A stretch of DNA of 64,000 nucleotides from the IMG/VR virus record IMGVR_UViG_3300027779_000022, one strand, 5' to 3'. The notes under the pieces were generated by a model, which was not told the DNA's origin, did no database searches, and saw only the letters and a program-made list of their open reading frames with translations. A program made the translations under genes and the position numbers. The DNA comes from an uncultured virus (IMG/VR IMGVR_UViG_3300027779_000022) (Duplodnaviria; Heunggongvirae; Uroviricota; Caudoviricetes). Below, piece after piece: positions 40,735 through 45,560 of the stretch; the first letter of the stretch is position 1; the number at the start of each line of letters is the position of its first letter.

Positions 40735-41936
40735 TGTACTTTCAAGCGCTTGATGATAAAAGAGACTGTATCGGAATTTATACAGATGGCCATCTCATTT
40801 TTGATGATGATAAAATGCCAACAGACTTCAAAGATGCCAGAACGTGGAAATATTCTGGCTCTGTGGTTGATGACTCTATTAGTTATGGATGGTTCTTAGT
40901 GAACGGTAAAGCTCTAGAAGAGGTTTGTCCGGACCACTTAATGGAAGATCTAAACAAAAAGCAGCAGAAAATGCGGGCTTTTAGAAAAGCTTTTGAAATT
41001 GCTAAGATCGATTTTAGGGAACATTGCTTCTTTGATATTGTACCTCACGATTTTTTGGAGTCCTTTTTAGATTTGAAAAACAAGATAACTCAATACGTTT
41101 TTGAGAACTTTGAAAAACCTCCGACGTATAGCCATTTAGTAGAAGTTGAAAAATTGCTGTATAAGATTCGATACCAAAACTTGAATGTCAACAACAAAGA
41201 TTGCCGTTCTCTTTTTGTTAGTACAGGCACCCGCCACGCGGCAAAAAAGATTTTAAATGGACCAGCGTTCGTCGATTACAACATCTTCGGAACGAAAACT
41301 GGCCGCCTAACAACCCACCCGGGTTCATTCCCAATACTAACCATGAAGAAACAGCTCAGAGCACTTGTAAAGCCCGTGAACGACTGGTTTATATCCTTCG
41401 ATTATAATGGCGCTGAAGCGCGCACAGTCTTGGGTCTCTTAGGAATAAAACAACCCTCTTACGATGTTCACGAGTGGAACATCGATAACATGTTTAAAAA
41501 CATAGGTATTACTAGTCGCGACCGTGCAAAAACAGCATTTTTTGCTTGGTTGTATAACCCAAATTCAGATAAGATTAAAAACTCTATATATGATCGCGAC
41601 GCACTCCTTCAACAAAATTATGATGGAGATTTTGTAAAAACTATCTTCGGAAGAAAAATGTTTGTTGACAAAGAGAGAGCATTGAATTATCTTATTCAGA
41701 GCACAACTGCAGACCTTGTAAATGAGCGAGCAGTTACAATCGATCATTTCCTAGAAGATAAGAAGTCGTTTGTATCACACATAATTCATGACGAGTTGGT
41801 TATTGATATGCCAAACGATGAAAAATACCTGATCCCGGAATTAAAAGAAATGTTTTCACAAAATAAATTAGCAACGTTCAGAACCAACCTACAAGCTGGA
41901 AAAGATTACTATAATCTCGGAGAGCTTAATTTATGA
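40734..41936 (+). CDS. minimal family A DNA polymerase-like protein
   Basis: TKTGRL, motif A DYNGAEAR, motif B RDRAKTAFFAWLY, NYLIQST, motif C IHDEL. Confidence 0.8.
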   Translation: MYFQALDDKRDCIGIYTDGHLIFDDDKMPTDFKDARTWKYSGSVVDDSISYGWFLVNGKALEEVCPDHLMEDLNKKQQKMRAFRKAFEIAKIDFREHCFFDIVPHDFLESFLDLKNKITQYVFENFEKPPTYSHLVEVEKLLYKIRYQNLNVNNKDCRSLFVSTGTRHAAKKILNGPAFVDYNIFGTKTGRLTTHPGSFPILTMKKQLRALVKPVNDWFISFDYNGAEARTVLGLLGIKQPSYDVHEWNIDNMFKNIGITSRDRAKTAFFAWLYNPNSDKIKNSIYDRDALLQQNYDGDFVKTIFGRKMFVDKERALNYLIQSTTADLVNERAVTIDHFLEDKKSFVSHIIHDELVIDMPNDEKYLIPELKEMFSQNKLATFRTNLQAGKDYYNLGELNL

Positions 41937-42790
41937 TTTCGGTTATTGGGATAGGCAACGCGGCATCGGCGATAGTGGAGAAATTCAAAACTCAAAAGAA
42001 TTACAAAGTCTATCAGCTTGGTAGCGACCTGGAGAAGACAAACCACGTATACCCGCTGCTTACGCACAGTGAGCCAGAAAATTATGAGGCAAATATACCA
42101 AAATTGAAGAACTTCTTCAAGGGGATTACCAATGATGTGCAGGTATTCGTTGTTGGCGCCTCCTATAGTTCAAATTACACTTTGGGGATATTAGAGCAAA
42201 TTAAAGATAAGTCAATAGAGATATTCTATATTAAACCTGATACAGAGTTGCTTACAGGCATGCCCAAGCTAATGGAAAATGTCTTATATGGCGTCCTGCA
42301 GGAGTACGCGCGTTCTGGTCTCTTTAAAAATATCACTGTGTTTTCAAATCTTGAAATGGAGAAAAACATGTTAGATATTTCGATTAAGAATTATTATGAT
42401 TCACTCAACACTACTATTTTTTCCACAGTTCACTATCTAAACTTCTTCACTCACACAGAACCAGAAATTGGCCAGATGGCCCGGCCGGCGCCTGTAAACA
42501 GAATTCGCTCAATAGGGATCTTAGACATTGATAAAATTCAAGAAAAATGGCTTTTTGAGCTTGACACCCCCCGGGAGATATGTTATTATATATGTATAAA
42601 TGATGAAAGATTAGAACAAGAAATAGGACTACATAAACAAATTGTAGATAAGTTGAAACAAAAACCAAGGAACGCTTTTAAGAAGATCTCTTATGGTATT
42701 TGGGAAACTCATCTACATGACTTTGGGTTTTGCGTTGCCCACACTAACGTAATACAAAAACAAACTCTTGACAAGCTAGGACAAGAGTAA
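41933..42790 (+). CDS. degenerate tubulin/FtsZ-like protein
   Basis: N-terminal VIGIGNAASAIV resembles the FtsZ T1 loop; secondary-structure spacing fits; GGGTGSG signature absent. Confidence 0.5.
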   Translation: MISVIGIGNAASAIVEKFKTQKNYKVYQLGSDLEKTNHVYPLLTHSEPENYEANIPKLKNFFKGITNDVQVFVVGASYSSNYTLGILEQIKDKSIEIFYIKPDTELLTGMPKLMENVLYGVLQEYARSGLFKNITVFSNLEMEKNMLDISIKNYYDSLNTTIFSTVHYLNFFTHTEPEIGQMARPAPVNRIRSIGILDIDKIQEKWLFELDTPREICYYICINDERLEQEIGLHKQIVDKLKQKPRNAFKKISYGIWETHLHDFGFCVAHTNVIQKQTLDKLGQE

Positions 42791-42796
42791 TATATT
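42768..42796 (+). promoter_or_regulatory. sigma70-type promoter
   Basis: TTGACA-17-TATATT upstream of ssb. Confidence 0.75.
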
Positions 42797-42848
42797 AGAT
42801 ATCAAGGAACGCTTGGTATACTTTAGACATTAATTAAAAGGAGAAAAT

Positions 42849-43610
42849 ATGTCAATTAATATGGAACTAATGAGAAAGAAGCTCGCCCAACTTAAGGGTG
42901 ACGAATCGGAGGATTCAGTTTGGTTTCGCCCACAAGAGGGTGACACTGATATTAGAATCGTGCCAATGGGAGATGGAGATCCTCTAAAGGAAATGCATTT
43001 CCATTATAACATTGGAGAAAGAAAAGGCGGGATTATGTGCCCGAAGCGAAACTTCAGCGAACGCTGCGGAATTTGCGATTTTGCTTCCTCGCTGTGGAGA
43101 GAGGGAGTTGAGAAGAATGATGATGATAGCAAGAAGCTTGCCAAGTCTTTGTTCGTACGACAACGATATTTTTCACCCGTTGTTGTTCGTGGACAAGAAG
43201 AAGCTGGTATCAAATTTTACGGATACGGCAAGAAGGCGTATGAGCTTTTGCTGGGCTACATCTTGGATCCAGAATATGGAGACATTACGGATGCCCTTGA
43301 AGGGACAGATATCTCTCTTACGTATACCCCGCGTACACACGCTGGGACATTTCCACAAACAAATCTAAAAATGCGTCGTAGCACGTCTACGTTGCTGGAA
43401 GACACTGAGGCTATCCCTGCCCTCCTTGATCGTATGCCCGATTTTGATAGCCTCTTTGAGCGTCTGTCCCCCACAGACATCGATGCAATTCTTGACGAGC
43501 AACTTTCAGGTAACGCTAGCGCTGAAGAGCGTTCATCTGAGACAGGAAAATATAATGTTGATACCAAAAATCCGGTAGACAAGGCATTCGACGAACTTAT
43601 GGCTAAATAA
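42849..43610 (+). CDS. single-stranded DNA-binding protein (gp32-like)
   Basis: WFRP..G...IRIVP, HY...CP......CGIC Zn motif, DPEYGDITD..EG.D, acidic C-terminus. Confidence 0.85.
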   Translation: MSINMELMRKKLAQLKGDESEDSVWFRPQEGDTDIRIVPMGDGDPLKEMHFHYNIGERKGGIMCPKRNFSERCGICDFASSLWREGVEKNDDDSKKLAKSLFVRQRYFSPVVVRGQEEAGIKFYGYGKKAYELLLGYILDPEYGDITDALEGTDISLTYTPRTHAGTFPQTNLKMRRSTSTLLEDTEAIPALLDRMPDFDSLFERLSPTDIDAILDEQLSGNASAEERSSETGKYNVDTKNPVDKAFDELMAK

Positions 43611-43693
43611 GTAATAGATTTGTTTGATGCCGCTGGCAGACCGGTATTATAAATAGTCTGCCACAATTTTCTATAAACAAAAAGGAGAATGTT

Positions 43694-43939
43694 ATGGAAT
43701 GGTTAAAATCCTTATGGGCCCGCTGGAAGGTTCAAGTTAGCGTTGTTGGAGGCGTGCTTATTGTCGCAACCGCATATGGAACTTGTTCCGTTGACCCGGC
43801 TACTGTATCTGATAATAGCACAACAGAGACGATCCCGATTATCAATGAGATTGTTGAGGTTTCTGCTATCACAGAGACACCAGAGGCAACCACCACCGGT
43901 GACACAACTACTGAAACCACCGCAACTACAACTGAGTAG
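43694..43939 (+). CDS. small membrane-anchored protein with Thr-rich tail
   Basis: AAGGAG SD; hydrophobic VSVVGGVLIVATAYGTC then Thr/Glu-rich. Confidence 0.75.
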   Translation: MEWLKSLWARWKVQVSVVGGVLIVATAYGTCSVDPATVSDNSTTETIPIINEIVEVSAITETPEATTTGDTTTETTATTTE

Positions 43940-43998
43940 TAAACAAAGCCGCTGGCAGACCGGTAAAAAGTCTGCCGCCACTTTAAAGGAGTAACAAA

Positions 43999-44184
43999 AT
44001 GCAAGATGAAATCAATATGTTGGAAGACATGATCGAACTGTTAACTGCCACTCGAGCAGATTACAGTAAATTCTATAATGAAGGTAACGGCGCAGCCGGC
44101 ACCCGTTTGCGTAAGGTTATGCAGGAAGTCAAGACTTCTGCTCAAACTTTGCGTCTGCATGTACAAGAAACAAAGAACACTTAA
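43999..44184 (+). CDS. histone H1-like (Hc1-family) small protein
   Basis: KFYNEGNGAAGTRLRKVMQEVK resembles the Hc1 N-terminal domain; AAGGAG SD. Confidence 0.7.
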   Translation: MQDEINMLEDMIELLTATRADYSKFYNEGNGAAGTRLRKVMQEVKTSAQTLRLHVQETKNT

Positions 44185-44244
44185 ACCTGTTCTACAAACC
44201 CGCCGGCAGACCGGTAAAAAGTCTGCCATTATTAAGGAGAGAAT

Positions 44245-44352
44245 ATGAGACTCGTTCTACCAATCCTTGCCGTAACCCTATTAATGGCTTGCGGGGATAA
44301 GGATGAAGACACCGCGGCTGACACCGCTAGCTCTACTGATACAGCAGAGTGA
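44245..44352 (+). CDS. 35 aa lipoprotein (absent from ORF track)
   Basis: MRLVLPILAVTLLMAC GDKDEDTAADTASSTDTAE; AAGGAG SD; lipobox LMAC. Confidence 0.75.
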   Translation: MRLVLPILAVTLLMACGDKDEDTAADTASSTDTAE

Positions 44353-44411
44353 AAACAGCCGCTGGCAGACCGGTAAAAAGTCTGCCGCTATTTATGTCTT
44401 AAGGAGGGCAC

Positions 44412-45560
44412 ATGGCGAAGAAAACAACAGCTAAAGCCGGTCGAGTAGACCTGCAAAGCTTAATGAAAATAGTTAATAAAAAGGCCGGACAAAATGTGGC
44501 ACACAACTTGTCTGGCGATAACCCCACATCCGTTAAGGAGTGGATCCCGACCGGCTCCCGCTGGCTCGACTCCATCATCAGCAAAGGCAAGTTGACAGGA
44601 ATTCCAGTAGGCAAGATCACAGAGATCGCGGGATTAGAATCAACCGGTAAATCATATATGGCAGTACAAGTGGCCGCAAACGCCCAGAAAACAGGCAAGG
44701 TTGTTGTTTACTTCGATTCTGAGTCTGCCATCGACCCAGCCTTCTTGGAGCGAGCAGGGTGTGATCTAGACCAGTTGATGTATGTTCAAGCAACCTCTGT
44801 CGAGTTTGTTTTGGAAACCATTGAAGAACTGCTTGGAGCGACTGACGAACAAATAGTATTTATTTGGGACTCGTTAGCCTTCACTCCTTCTGTTTCAGAT
44901 GTTGAGGGAGACTTCAACCCACAATCTTCAATGGCGGTGAAGGCACGCATTCTCGCGAAGGGAATGTCAAAGCTTGTTATCCCGATTGCGGACAAACAAG
45001 CAACCTTAATTGTTCTTAACCAACTTAAGACCAATATCCCACAAGGCCCAAATGCAAGAATCGTTGCAATGACGACACCCTACACAACCCCAGGCGGCAA
45101 AGCGATGCATTATGCATACTCGCTTCGCATCTGGCTGACTGGACGTAAAGCTAAGGCTGCGTTCATTGAGGATGAGAAAGGGTTTCGCATTGGCTCCGAA
45201 GTCAAAATAAAACTTGAGAAGTCTCGCTTTGGAACACAAGGTCGTTCATGTGCCTTCCGCATTATGTGGGGTACTGATGATGTGGGTATCCGCGATGAAG
45301 AATCTTGGTTTGATGCCATCAAGGGATCCGAACATCTTTCCTCTGCCGGCGCTTGGTATACTCTGTCTACACCAGATGGTTACTCAAAGAAGTTCCAACC
45401 ATCAAAATGGACTGAGACTATAAAGAGCGACGAAGAATTTCGGAAAAGAATTATCCAGATTATGGATGAAGAGATTGTCCAGAAGTTTGATAAACGCGAA
45501 GGCGATGCCAGCGTTTTCTATGAAGATCCAGAGGATCTCACAGTTCCAGTAACTGACTAA
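44412..45560 (+). CDS. recA: RecA/UvsX recombinase
   Basis: GLESTGKS Walker A, FDSE, IVLNQL, TPGGKA, KSRF. Confidence 0.92.
   Translation: MAKKTTAKAGRVDLQSLMKIVNKKAGQNVAHNLSGDNPTSVKEWIPTGSRWLDSIISKGKLTGIPVGKITEIAGLESTGKSYMAVQVAANAQKTGKVVVYFDSESAIDPAFLERAGCDLDQLMYVQATSVEFVLETIEELLGATDEQIVFIWDSLAFTPSVSDVEGDFNPQSSMAVKARILAKGMSKLVIPIADKQATLIVLNQLKTNIPQGPNARIVAMTTPYTTPGGKAMHYAYSLRIWLTGRKAKAAFIEDEKGFRIGSEVKIKLEKSRFGTQGRSCAFRIMWGTDDVGIRDEESWFDAIKGSEHLSSAGAWYTLSTPDGYSKKFQPSKWTETIKSDEEFRKRIIQIMDEEIVQKFDKREGDASVFYEDPEDLTVPVTD

What the first reader, a model, noticed from the sequence alone, without database searches (positions are those of the whole stretch)
43626..44411. Array of H-type pseudoknot repeats heading mini-gene cassettes between ssb and recA
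Seen: four copies (43629, 43948, 44199, 44358) of GCCG-CT-GGCAGAC-CGGT-AAAAA-GTCTGCC, each shortly after a stop codon and 6-20 nt before an AAGGAG. They precede an 81 aa membrane protein, an Hc1-like protein, a 35 aa lipoprotein and recA. The order S1(GCCG), L1, S2(GGCAGAC), S1'(CGGT), A-rich L3, S2'(GTCTGCC) is an H-type pseudoknot. Copy 1 extends S1 to GATGCCG/CGGTATT and lengthens L3 to 7 nt, as the geometry would require; copy 3 has only a 3-bp S1. Known: T-even gene 32 mRNA uses a pseudoknot of similar architecture to nucleate gp32 and repress translation. Inference: either a multi-gene SSB-responsive translational operator covering recA, or RNA processing/stability elements; the repeats may also let cassettes be gained and lost by recombination.
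Basis: partly seen in the sequence, partly recalled or inferred. Interest (0 to 1): 0.88.

Follow-up and report, generated by a model that had tools for sequence, protein, structure and literature searches.

The report
Widespread phage RNA boundary pseudoknot
Four copies of a tiny RNA knot follow the single-strand-binding-protein gene and three small genes of an uncultured phage; the same knot recurs in many unrelated phages, most likely marking and protecting RNA ends so that upstream genes are made more abundantly than downstream ones, and it also serves as a swap point for small genes.

Summary
The four copies are real (0 in 100 shuffles) and the pseudoknot is well supported. Stem 2 covaries among 80 SSB-orthologous loci. 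Stem 1, invariant in this clade, covaries in distant phages: with one side forced to change, the free partner compensated in 56 of 64 and 17 of 20 flank clusters. The core is sequence-specific: scrambling stem 2 or changing loop 1 cut hits from >118 to 2 and 1. No Rfam match.

The gene-32-type operator reading is not supported. The element lies after ssb, not in its leader. Its subtype tracks the upstream gene, and a U-rich tail follows. Elsewhere it follows SSB, annealing, capsid and tail-tube genes, lies 4-9 nt before tRNAs, and abuts some TnpB omega-RNA scaffolds.

Best reading: a leaky terminator or pause whose knot caps the upstream RNA's 3' end (inferred; no RNA-end data). Cassette gain and loss at the repeats is supported (9 of 9 chosen pairs; one chimeric copy). 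This scan noted the element before on other genomes. The tRNA spacing, omega-RNA context and controls are my additions, and leave room for a more general nuclease-barrier or processing role.

The parts
42768..42796 (+). sigma-70-like promoter (TTGACA-17-TATATT) heading the ssb to recA unit
   Evidence: 11 of 12 matches; promoter-like sites overall not above shuffles, 4 vs 5.8; similar site in the 7 relatives printed
42799..42819 (+). ssb leader hairpin with GAA(A/C)G loop; a simple hairpin, no pseudoknot
   Evidence: covarying 7-bp stem with this loop in 69 of 77 relatives
42849..43610 (+). gp32-like single-stranded DNA-binding protein, 253 aa
   Evidence: PF08804 E 2e-14; phrog_1192
43626..43662 (+). 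pseudoknot copy 1 (ssb type: long loop ending AAATA). S1 43626-43632/43642-43648, L1 43633-43634, S2 43635-43641/43656-43662; U-rich tail to about 43672
43694..43939 (+). 81-aa ORF, hydrophobic N-terminus and Thr-rich tail; cassette 1
   Evidence: no Pfam or PHROG hit; Atlas nearest cluster unnamed, 0.87, lead only; relatives in many loci
43948..43976 (+). pseudoknot copy 2 (mini-gene type, loop TAAAAA)
43999..44184 (+). Hc1-like 61-aa protein; cassette 2
   Evidence: PF07432 E 2e-17
44200..44227 (+). pseudoknot copy 3 (L1 = CC, 3-bp S1)
44245..44352 (+). 35-aa ORF with signal-like N-terminus and LLMAC lipobox-like motif; cassette 3
   Evidence: only weak PHROG hits, E >= 0.03; lipoprotein call read from sequence
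44358..44386 (+). pseudoknot copy 4, followed by GC and a U-rich tail
44412..45560 (+). RecA/UvsX-like recombinase, 382 aa
45568..45596 (+). next sigma-70-like promoter, before the 5'-3' exonuclease gene

Best explanation
A roughly 27-33 nt sequence-specific H-type RNA pseudoknot (NCG-(C/A)U-GGCANNN-CGN-loop ending in A-rich bases-NNNUGCC) that belongs to the RNA upstream of it and forms or protects its 3' end. Shown: the fold (covariation), its placement, the pyrimidine/U-rich tail, and that cassette indels break at the copies. Inferred: RNA polymerase pauses on the GC plus U-rich tail. Stem 2, lengthened by pairing the two bases after it with L1/S1, then acts as a leaky intrinsic terminator hairpin, or the transcript reads through. 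The released or trimmed RNA keeps the tight knot as a barrier to 3'-5' exonucleases. Each copy steps expression down, so SSB exceeds the mini-genes, which exceed RecA, from one promoter. As a by-product, near-identical copies act as crossover points that add or drop mini-genes.
For: Subtype follows the upstream gene: after ssb, 43 of 47 distinct copies have a loop of 7 nt or more and 43 of 47 end in ATA/GTA, whatever follows (81-aa, 35-aa, Hc1, recA); after mini-genes, 2 of 57 and 3 of 57. Tail: 4.8 T vs 2.0 A in the next 9 nt of 201 distinct clade copies, with GC at +1/+2 in 117 of 201. In 88 distant phage copies T is 38-49% at +3..+8 vs 21% background and G is 2-14% at +2..+9 vs 27%. Copies just before a sigma-70-like promoter have stronger tails (6.3 T, n=11) than copies before an RBS (4.65, n=156), p 2.5e-5. 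Upstream genes are abundant-protein genes: of 68 ORFs scanned, 28 had a functional name, 15 SSB from five PHROG families, 3 RecT-like, 4 major capsid, 3 phrog_290 (tail tube by Pfam), 3 other. 9 of 271 distinct copies lie 4-9 nt before a same-strand tRNA, where RNase P cleavage would leave the knot at the upstream RNA's 3' end (RNase P role from established knowledge). A second, different knot-like element fills the same post-ssb slot in relatives: 82 of 106 distinct copies follow an ssb hit.
Against: No RNA ends were observed: the two RNA runs give short contigs inside ssb only. The tail is short and offset by 2-3 nt; the terminator scanner called none of the four S2 hairpins, only one other-register hairpin at copy 4. 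The RU end of the GC(U)7RU strong-terminator motif is not enriched. In IS200/IS605 omega-RNA loci the knot has no U tail, lies inside the tnpB frame in five loci and is kept in a gene-less copy, so it cannot be a plain terminator there. In L400 it starts 0 nt after a tRNA. In Bradyrhizobium L378 a canonical-looking terminator follows it. The promoter comparison is confounded by relatedness and by A/T tracts upstream of -35 boxes.
Confidence: 0.55

Rival explanations
1. A passive but very stable boundary fold, a nuclease roadblock that can face either way (a bacterial counterpart of exonuclease-resistant RNAs), with no real termination. Ends are made by host nucleases, RNase P at the tRNA, or TnpB, and are trimmed back to the knot.
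For: The knot abuts the 5' side of omega-RNA scaffolds with no U tail, where related elements carry a plain hairpin instead (4 exact and 1 variant knot, 6 hairpins, 2 other types among 13 scaffolds shown from 32 loci). A gene-less copy shares sequence with the others only from the knot onward. Tight spacing to tRNAs.
Against: Does not explain the U-rich tail in two independent sets, or its strengthening before promoters.
Confidence: 0.2
2. SSB-responsive control: SSB nucleates on the knot, as gp32 does on the gene 32 pseudoknot, and represses translation of the next gene or shifts termination or decay.
For: 18 of 28 functionally named upstream genes are SSB or annealing proteins, more than capsid plus tube (7). 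The second element is also SSB-linked. Stem and loop sizes resemble the T2/T4 knot (sizes recalled, not from a call).
Against: No knot in the ssb leader: the 7 of 77 upstream hits carry a motif at the end of the previous gene that lies before the promoter in the one printed, L175. Subtype tracks the upstream gene. Spacer to SD only 6-24 nt. Occurs after capsid and tube genes, before tRNAs and in omega-RNAs. It would need five SSB families and RecT to read one RNA.
Confidence: 0.1
3. An active processing site: a very small self-cleaving RNA, or an acceptor-stem mimic (7-bp stem starting with G, U at -1, R-C after it) cut by RNase P.
For: Strict need for a pyrimidine before GGCA (1 hit vs >118) and for the S2 sequence (2 vs >118). 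It sits between units in mRNAs, tRNA arrays (L400: 0 nt after one tRNA, 4 nt before the next) and before omega-RNA. A search listing notes that RNase P can cut a pseudoknot (PMC12710915, listing only).
Against: 27 nt is smaller than the natural ribozymes I recall. A cut 4-9 nt before a tRNA would be redundant. RCC after the stem is not conserved in distant copies (C at +2 43%, at +3 39%). No Rfam ribozyme match.
Confidence: 0.07
4. A DNA-level element (folded single-stranded recombination site, attC-like) whose main job is cassette exchange.
For: Cassette indels break at copies in 9 of 9 chosen pairs; L173 holds a chimera of two L171 copies. SSB and RecA lie beside it.
Against: Strand-fixed placement after stops with a one-sided U tail; single copies after capsid genes and in tRNA arrays; G-U-type changes tolerated in both stems. 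I did not look for an integrase. Plain homologous recombination between repeats explains the indels.
Confidence: 0.05
5. A ligand-binding aptamer (riboswitch) switching between the knot and the extended terminator hairpin.
For: Sequence-conserved core; two mutually exclusive pairings of the S1 G (folds the extended hairpin in copies 2 and 4). The strand order resembles the fluoride riboswitch (recalled).
Against: No Rfam riboswitch hit; downstream genes share no function; subtype follows the upstream gene.
Confidence: 0.03

Closest known systems
T4/T2/RB69 gene 32 translational operator pseudoknot (PMC535899, PMC3014915; passages read)
   Same: Compact H-type knot with coaxial stems, near a gp32-like ssb gene.
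   Different: The T4 knot is in the 5' leader of gene 32, followed by a >40-nt unstructured UUAAA-rich segment. This one is 3' of ssb, repeated, 6-24 nt from the next SD, and also found beside capsid genes, tRNAs and omega-RNAs.
PeSL cassettes of T4-like phages (PMC2839356, PMC4122927; abstracts read)
   Same: Repeated intergenic elements with terminator activity that bound small variable genes and mediate their gain and loss by recombination.
   Different: PeSLs join a strong sigma-70 promoter to a stem-loop. Here the element is a pseudoknot, and only 12 of 246 copies have a promoter-like site just downstream and 2 upstream. It is confined to one junction in each related record searched.
Intrinsic terminators with partial read-through after highly expressed phage genes (T7 T-phi after the capsid gene is recalled; GC(U)7RU motif from bioRxiv 10.64898/2026.05.29.728758, abstract and section 6 read)
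   Same: GC-rich 7-bp stem after a stop codon, GC then a U-rich tail, after abundant-protein genes.
   Different: The loop pairs with upstream bases to form a covarying second stem, the core sequence is conserved across unrelated phages, the U tract is short, and some contexts have none.
STAXI motif, Rfam RF01728 (PMC2864571; passages read)
   Same: Repeated simple pseudoknot near ssb and other DNA-handling genes.
   Different: STAXI is tandem within one spacer, often has UUCG loops and is enterobacterial. No RF01728 match here. Copies here are mostly single per spacer (tandem seen in L079 and L171).
TnpB omega-RNA pseudoknot (PMC10097598; passages read)
   Same: A pseudoknot associated with an IS200/IS605 omega-RNA.
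   Different: The ISDra2 knot joins the scaffold's far 5' part to bases beside the guide. The knot seen here is a separate local fold directly 5' of the scaffold and is optional among relatives.

Membership tests
H-type pseudoknot | Stem 2 pairs and covaries | tested here: met
   Anchoring only on CCG-MY-N7-CGG in 80 SSB loci, 102 of 118 distinct anchors have a full 7/7 complement 3-18 nt on, 37 with a changed 3' arm; 0 of 39 control anchors do.
H-type pseudoknot | Stem 1 pairs and covaries | tested here: met
   3' base forced non-canonical, partner free: pair 1 Watson-Crick in 72 of 82 distinct copies, 56 of 64 flank clusters (shuffle mean 25.8, 0 of 10,000); pair 2 in 19 of 23, 17 of 20 clusters (4 of 10,000); pair 3 C-G in 6 of 9, U-G 2 (shuffle test uninformative). 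Both sides free in genomes: 58 of 93 clusters vs 33. In the window's own clade S1 is almost invariant.
H-type pseudoknot | Knot forms in the RNA (probing or structure) | not testable with these tools
   ViennaRNA folds only the S2 hairpin, in copies 2 and 4 with a 2-bp extension; it cannot model knots.
Gene 32 translational operator | Pseudoknot in the 5' leader of the ssb gene itself | tested here: not met
   the leader holds a simple GAA(A/C)G hairpin; 7 of 77 upstream knot-like hits carry a motif from the previous gene's end, before the promoter in the one printed.
Gene 32 translational operator | >40-nt unstructured A/U segment with UUAAA repeats between knot and RBS | tested here: not met
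   SD offset 6-24 nt in 156 of 158 copies; feature.
Gene 32 translational operator | gp32 binds and represses | not testable with these tools
   Needs binding and toeprint assays.
Intrinsic terminator | GC-rich hairpin followed by a U tract | tested here: inconclusive
   U-rich tail present (T 74-96% at +4..+6, 71% at +7), GC at +1/+2 in 117 of 201, but short and offset; scanner did not call the S2 hairpins.
Intrinsic terminator | RNA 3' ends map to the tail | tested here: inconclusive
   Only assembled contigs were available; they cover 43369-43586 and do not reach the element.
PeSL cassette | Promoter joined to the stem-loop | tested here: not met
   12 of 246 downstream, 2 of 246 upstream; none at the four window copies on the + strand.
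PeSL cassette | Indels of small genes break at the repeats | tested here: met
   9 of 9 chosen pairs; chimeric copy in L173 vs L171.
STAXI (RF01728) or any Rfam family | Match to the covariance model | tested here: not met
   (E up to 5 and 10): only chance-level hits, best over the element RF01107 at 15.3 bits vs cut-off 39. No match over the element at gathering score in 51 further loci.

The most novel reading that the evidence does not exclude
The knot is an unrecognised, portable RNA boundary device of about 27 nt with a sequence-specific core: a bacterial exonuclease roadblock or a minimal processing site. Phages and IS200/IS605 elements across many phyla use it to cut long transcripts into units: abundant mRNAs, tRNAs, small RNAs and TnpB guide RNAs. 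Termination would be secondary.
Probability: 0.2. Interest if true: 0.9.

Novelty: new variant of a known kind. Interest (0 to 1): 0.62.

Why it matters
It is a small RNA family with strong two-stem covariation, found in unrelated phages and in genome records of many phyla, with no Rfam match and no description in the searches I ran. If it is a knotted leaky terminator or 3' cap, it is a new design for stepping expression down an operon and an easy system for asking how a pseudoknot in the RNA exit channel affects termination. If the omega-RNA and tRNA contexts reflect a nuclease barrier or cleavage site, it would be a new minimal RNA processing element, useful for stabilising guide RNAs and mRNAs. 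It also shows an RNA signal doubling as a recombination anchor for phage mini-genes.

Tried and rejected
No whole genome is held for the window; related records were used instead. RNA runs X1 and X2 hold 5-6% of sampled words; two contigs match the 3' part of ssb without differences but stop 44 and 67 nt short of copy 1, so they say nothing about ends. An orientation test by ORF tiling was swamped by spurious antisense ORFs (30 of 73 and 25 of 52 called 'inside') and was not used. BLAST of copy 4 against cultured phages gave only weak partial hits, best E 0.04 in an unannotated record. Stop-codon read-through (stop, spacer, knot) was rejected: the spacing is 5-34 nt, all three stops occur, and double stops are seen. 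The reverse-strand fold was rejected on geometry (a 2-nt loop would have to cross the 7-bp stem's minor groove; established knowledge) and on the one-sided tail. The hand-picked alignment A1 (99% paired, 8 of 11 pairs with double changes) is illustrative only, as I chose its rows. The SSB tree (61 distinct of 80 rows) needs 11 changes of the first downstream gene, but 16 of 58 branches are unresolved and 5 rows are truncated or unassigned. The relaxed finder includes some false hits in its 'other-other' class, which I did not use. Literature searches found no description of this motif. Six supplementary files of PMC10690425 lacked three motif strings, but three files were not searched, and the supplement of PMC5737381 could not be read; either may hold it as an unnamed candidate. 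The Minerva preprint passages did not describe it.

Full report
Observation. They are the only four matches of a relaxed pattern in the window, with none in 100 shuffles. Promoter-like sites lie before ssb and after recA, so ssb to recA reads as one unit. The neighbours (PolA-like polymerase, 5'-3' exonuclease, DnaB, B12-dependent reductase) indicate a large phage. A related record classed as complete is 194 kb. Rfam gave no meaningful match.

The fold. In 80 loci fetched by SSB protein alone, 65 have a copy within 40 nt of the ssb stop. Of the other 15, ten carry a different element and two a degenerate copy; I did not examine the last three. Anchoring only on the S1 motifs, 102 of 118 distinct anchors have a full stem 2, 37 with a changed 3' arm, against 0 of 39 control anchors. 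S1 is almost always CCG/CGG in this clade, so I tested it in the wider collection by forcing one S1' base away from the consensus and leaving its partner free. The partner compensated in 72 of 82, 19 of 23 and 6 of 9 distinct copies. After clustering by flanks the counts were 56 of 64 (shuffle mean 25.8) and 17 of 20 (mean 10.0); the third test is uninformative by shuffling. With both sides free in prokaryotic genome records, 58 of 93 clusters paired against 33 expected; that set includes chance hits. Scrambling S2 cut hits from more than 118 to 2, and a purine at the second L1 position cut them to 1. So this is a pseudoknot with a sequence-specific core. That it forms in RNA is inferred from covariation, not probed.

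Which gene does it belong to? After ssb, 43 of 47 distinct copies have a loop of 7 nt or more and 43 end in ATA/GTA, whether the next gene is the 81-aa, 35-aa, Hc1 or recA gene. After mini-genes the counts are 2 and 3 of 57. These rows are related, so this is a pattern rather than independent trials; the SSB tree needs 11 changes of the first downstream gene, with weak resolution. In distant phages I scanned 68 upstream ORFs chosen from the 172 rows. Of these, 34 had no hit, 6 only unknown-function families, and 28 a name: 15 SSB in five PHROG families, 3 RecT-like, 4 major capsid, 3 tail tube, 3 other. Among 28 upstream ORFs from genome records, named hits were 2 capsid, 2 SSB, a tail tube, Bbp16, 3 sigma-factor-like, a TnpB end, an aldehyde dehydrogenase, a solute-binding protein and DUF3846. 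A U-rich, G-poor tail follows in 201 clade copies and in 88 distant copies. It is stronger in the 11 copies that precede a promoter than in the 156 that precede an RBS, with the caveats of relatedness and promoter A/T tracts. Against a classic terminator: the tail is short and offset, the scanner does not call these hairpins, and only the GC edge of the GC(U)7RU motif is matched.

Non-coding contexts. Of 271 distinct copies, 17 have a tRNA within 300 nt, all on the same strand (one call is doubtful). Nine lie 4-9 nt before a tRNA, and in L400 the knot fills the gap between two tRNAs. One follows a drum RNA (L208). Seven loci hold the knot directly 5' of an IS200/IS605 omega-RNA-like scaffold, recognised by the TnpB domain upstream and by a right-end layout that I recalled. 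There it has no U tail, lies inside the tnpB frame in five loci, and S1 reads GCG/CGC or CGG/CCG, or AGG/CCT in L494 (read by eye; the finder did not call it). Among 13 scaffolds shown from 32 loci, 6 close relatives have a plain hairpin there instead, and a gene-less copy shares sequence only from the knot onward. These cases rule out a purely translational role, and they are not explained by simple termination.

Cassettes. The ssb-recA distance ranges from 76 to 3,695 nt among relatives, with many gene arrangements. In 9 of 9 pairs that I picked for differing content, alignments break at copies. L173 has one copy with the 5' flank of one L171 copy and the 3' part of another, and lacks the 290-nt cassette between. 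This fits homologous recombination between repeats, as described for PeSLs (abstracts), but no promoter is built in. In four related records with matches the element occurs only at one junction, two copies each; the fifth record, a 13-kb fragment, had none.

Comparison. The gene 32 operator is defined by a knot in the ssb leader plus a >40-nt unstructured segment (passages). Both features were tested and not met. STAXI (passages) shares the repeated-knot-near-ssb theme but not the model. No search described this motif; unread supplements of PMC10690425 and PMC5737381 could hold it. Three earlier notes of this scan describe the same element on other genomes and read it as a 3'-end module. Before that look-up I favoured RNA end formation or processing; the notes narrowed this to the upstream 3' end and pointed me to capsid and tube genes, which I then checked. 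They are leads, not support.

Verdict. A real, widespread pseudoknot family, not found in Rfam or in my searches. Most likely a leaky terminator or pause that caps the upstream RNA and steps expression down (0.55). Next, a termination-independent nuclease barrier (0.2), SSB-responsive control (0.1), an active processing site (0.07), a DNA element (0.05) or an aptamer (0.03). Structure and context are shown; the mechanism is inferred.

Noticed in passing
window 42799-42819; 69 of 77 relatives: The ssb leader starts with a covarying 7-bp hairpin whose GAA(A/C)G loop is conserved, followed by an A-rich stretch to the SD. It is a better candidate than the knots for SSB autoregulation or 5' stabilisation.
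   Followed up: partly
L141, L158, L161 after ssb; L533-L652: A second element, CCC(A/G)CAGG-GAGGCAY-(A/G)GGG-loop-RTGCCTC plus a pyrimidine tail, fills the post-ssb slot in relatives; 82 of 106 distinct copies follow an ssb hit. No Rfam match in the four loci scanned. In L537 it seems to sit in tandem with the first element.
   Followed up: partly
L347, L382, L390, L415, L419, L422, L425, L494: The same knot directly 5' of TnpB omega-RNA scaffolds, optional among relatives and kept in a gene-less copy.
   Followed up: partly
L364, L386, L433, L479 around the match: In Lentisphaerae/Victivallaceae records (L479's title not shown) the knot ends a conserved non-coding stretch of about 60 nt after a -10-like box: a candidate small RNA with no Rfam match in the three loci scanned.
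   Followed up: no
L378, L375, L414: Copies after apparently chromosomal or plasmid genes in Bradyrhizobium (aldehyde dehydrogenase) and Methylocaldum (solute-binding protein), with short 3-4 nt loops.
   Followed up: no
window 41933-42790: 285-aa ORF before ssb has an FtsZ/tubulin-like N-terminus by eye (recalled motif) but no Pfam, PHROG or NCBIfam name.
   Followed up: no
L145, L150, L171 between copies: A further 66-aa cassette protein (starts MSDNKNG) rides between two copies in some relatives; larger 240-400 aa inserts occur in L128 and L136.
   Followed up: no
L396, L421, L434 upstream ORFs: Three copies follow sigma-70-like factor genes.
   Followed up: no
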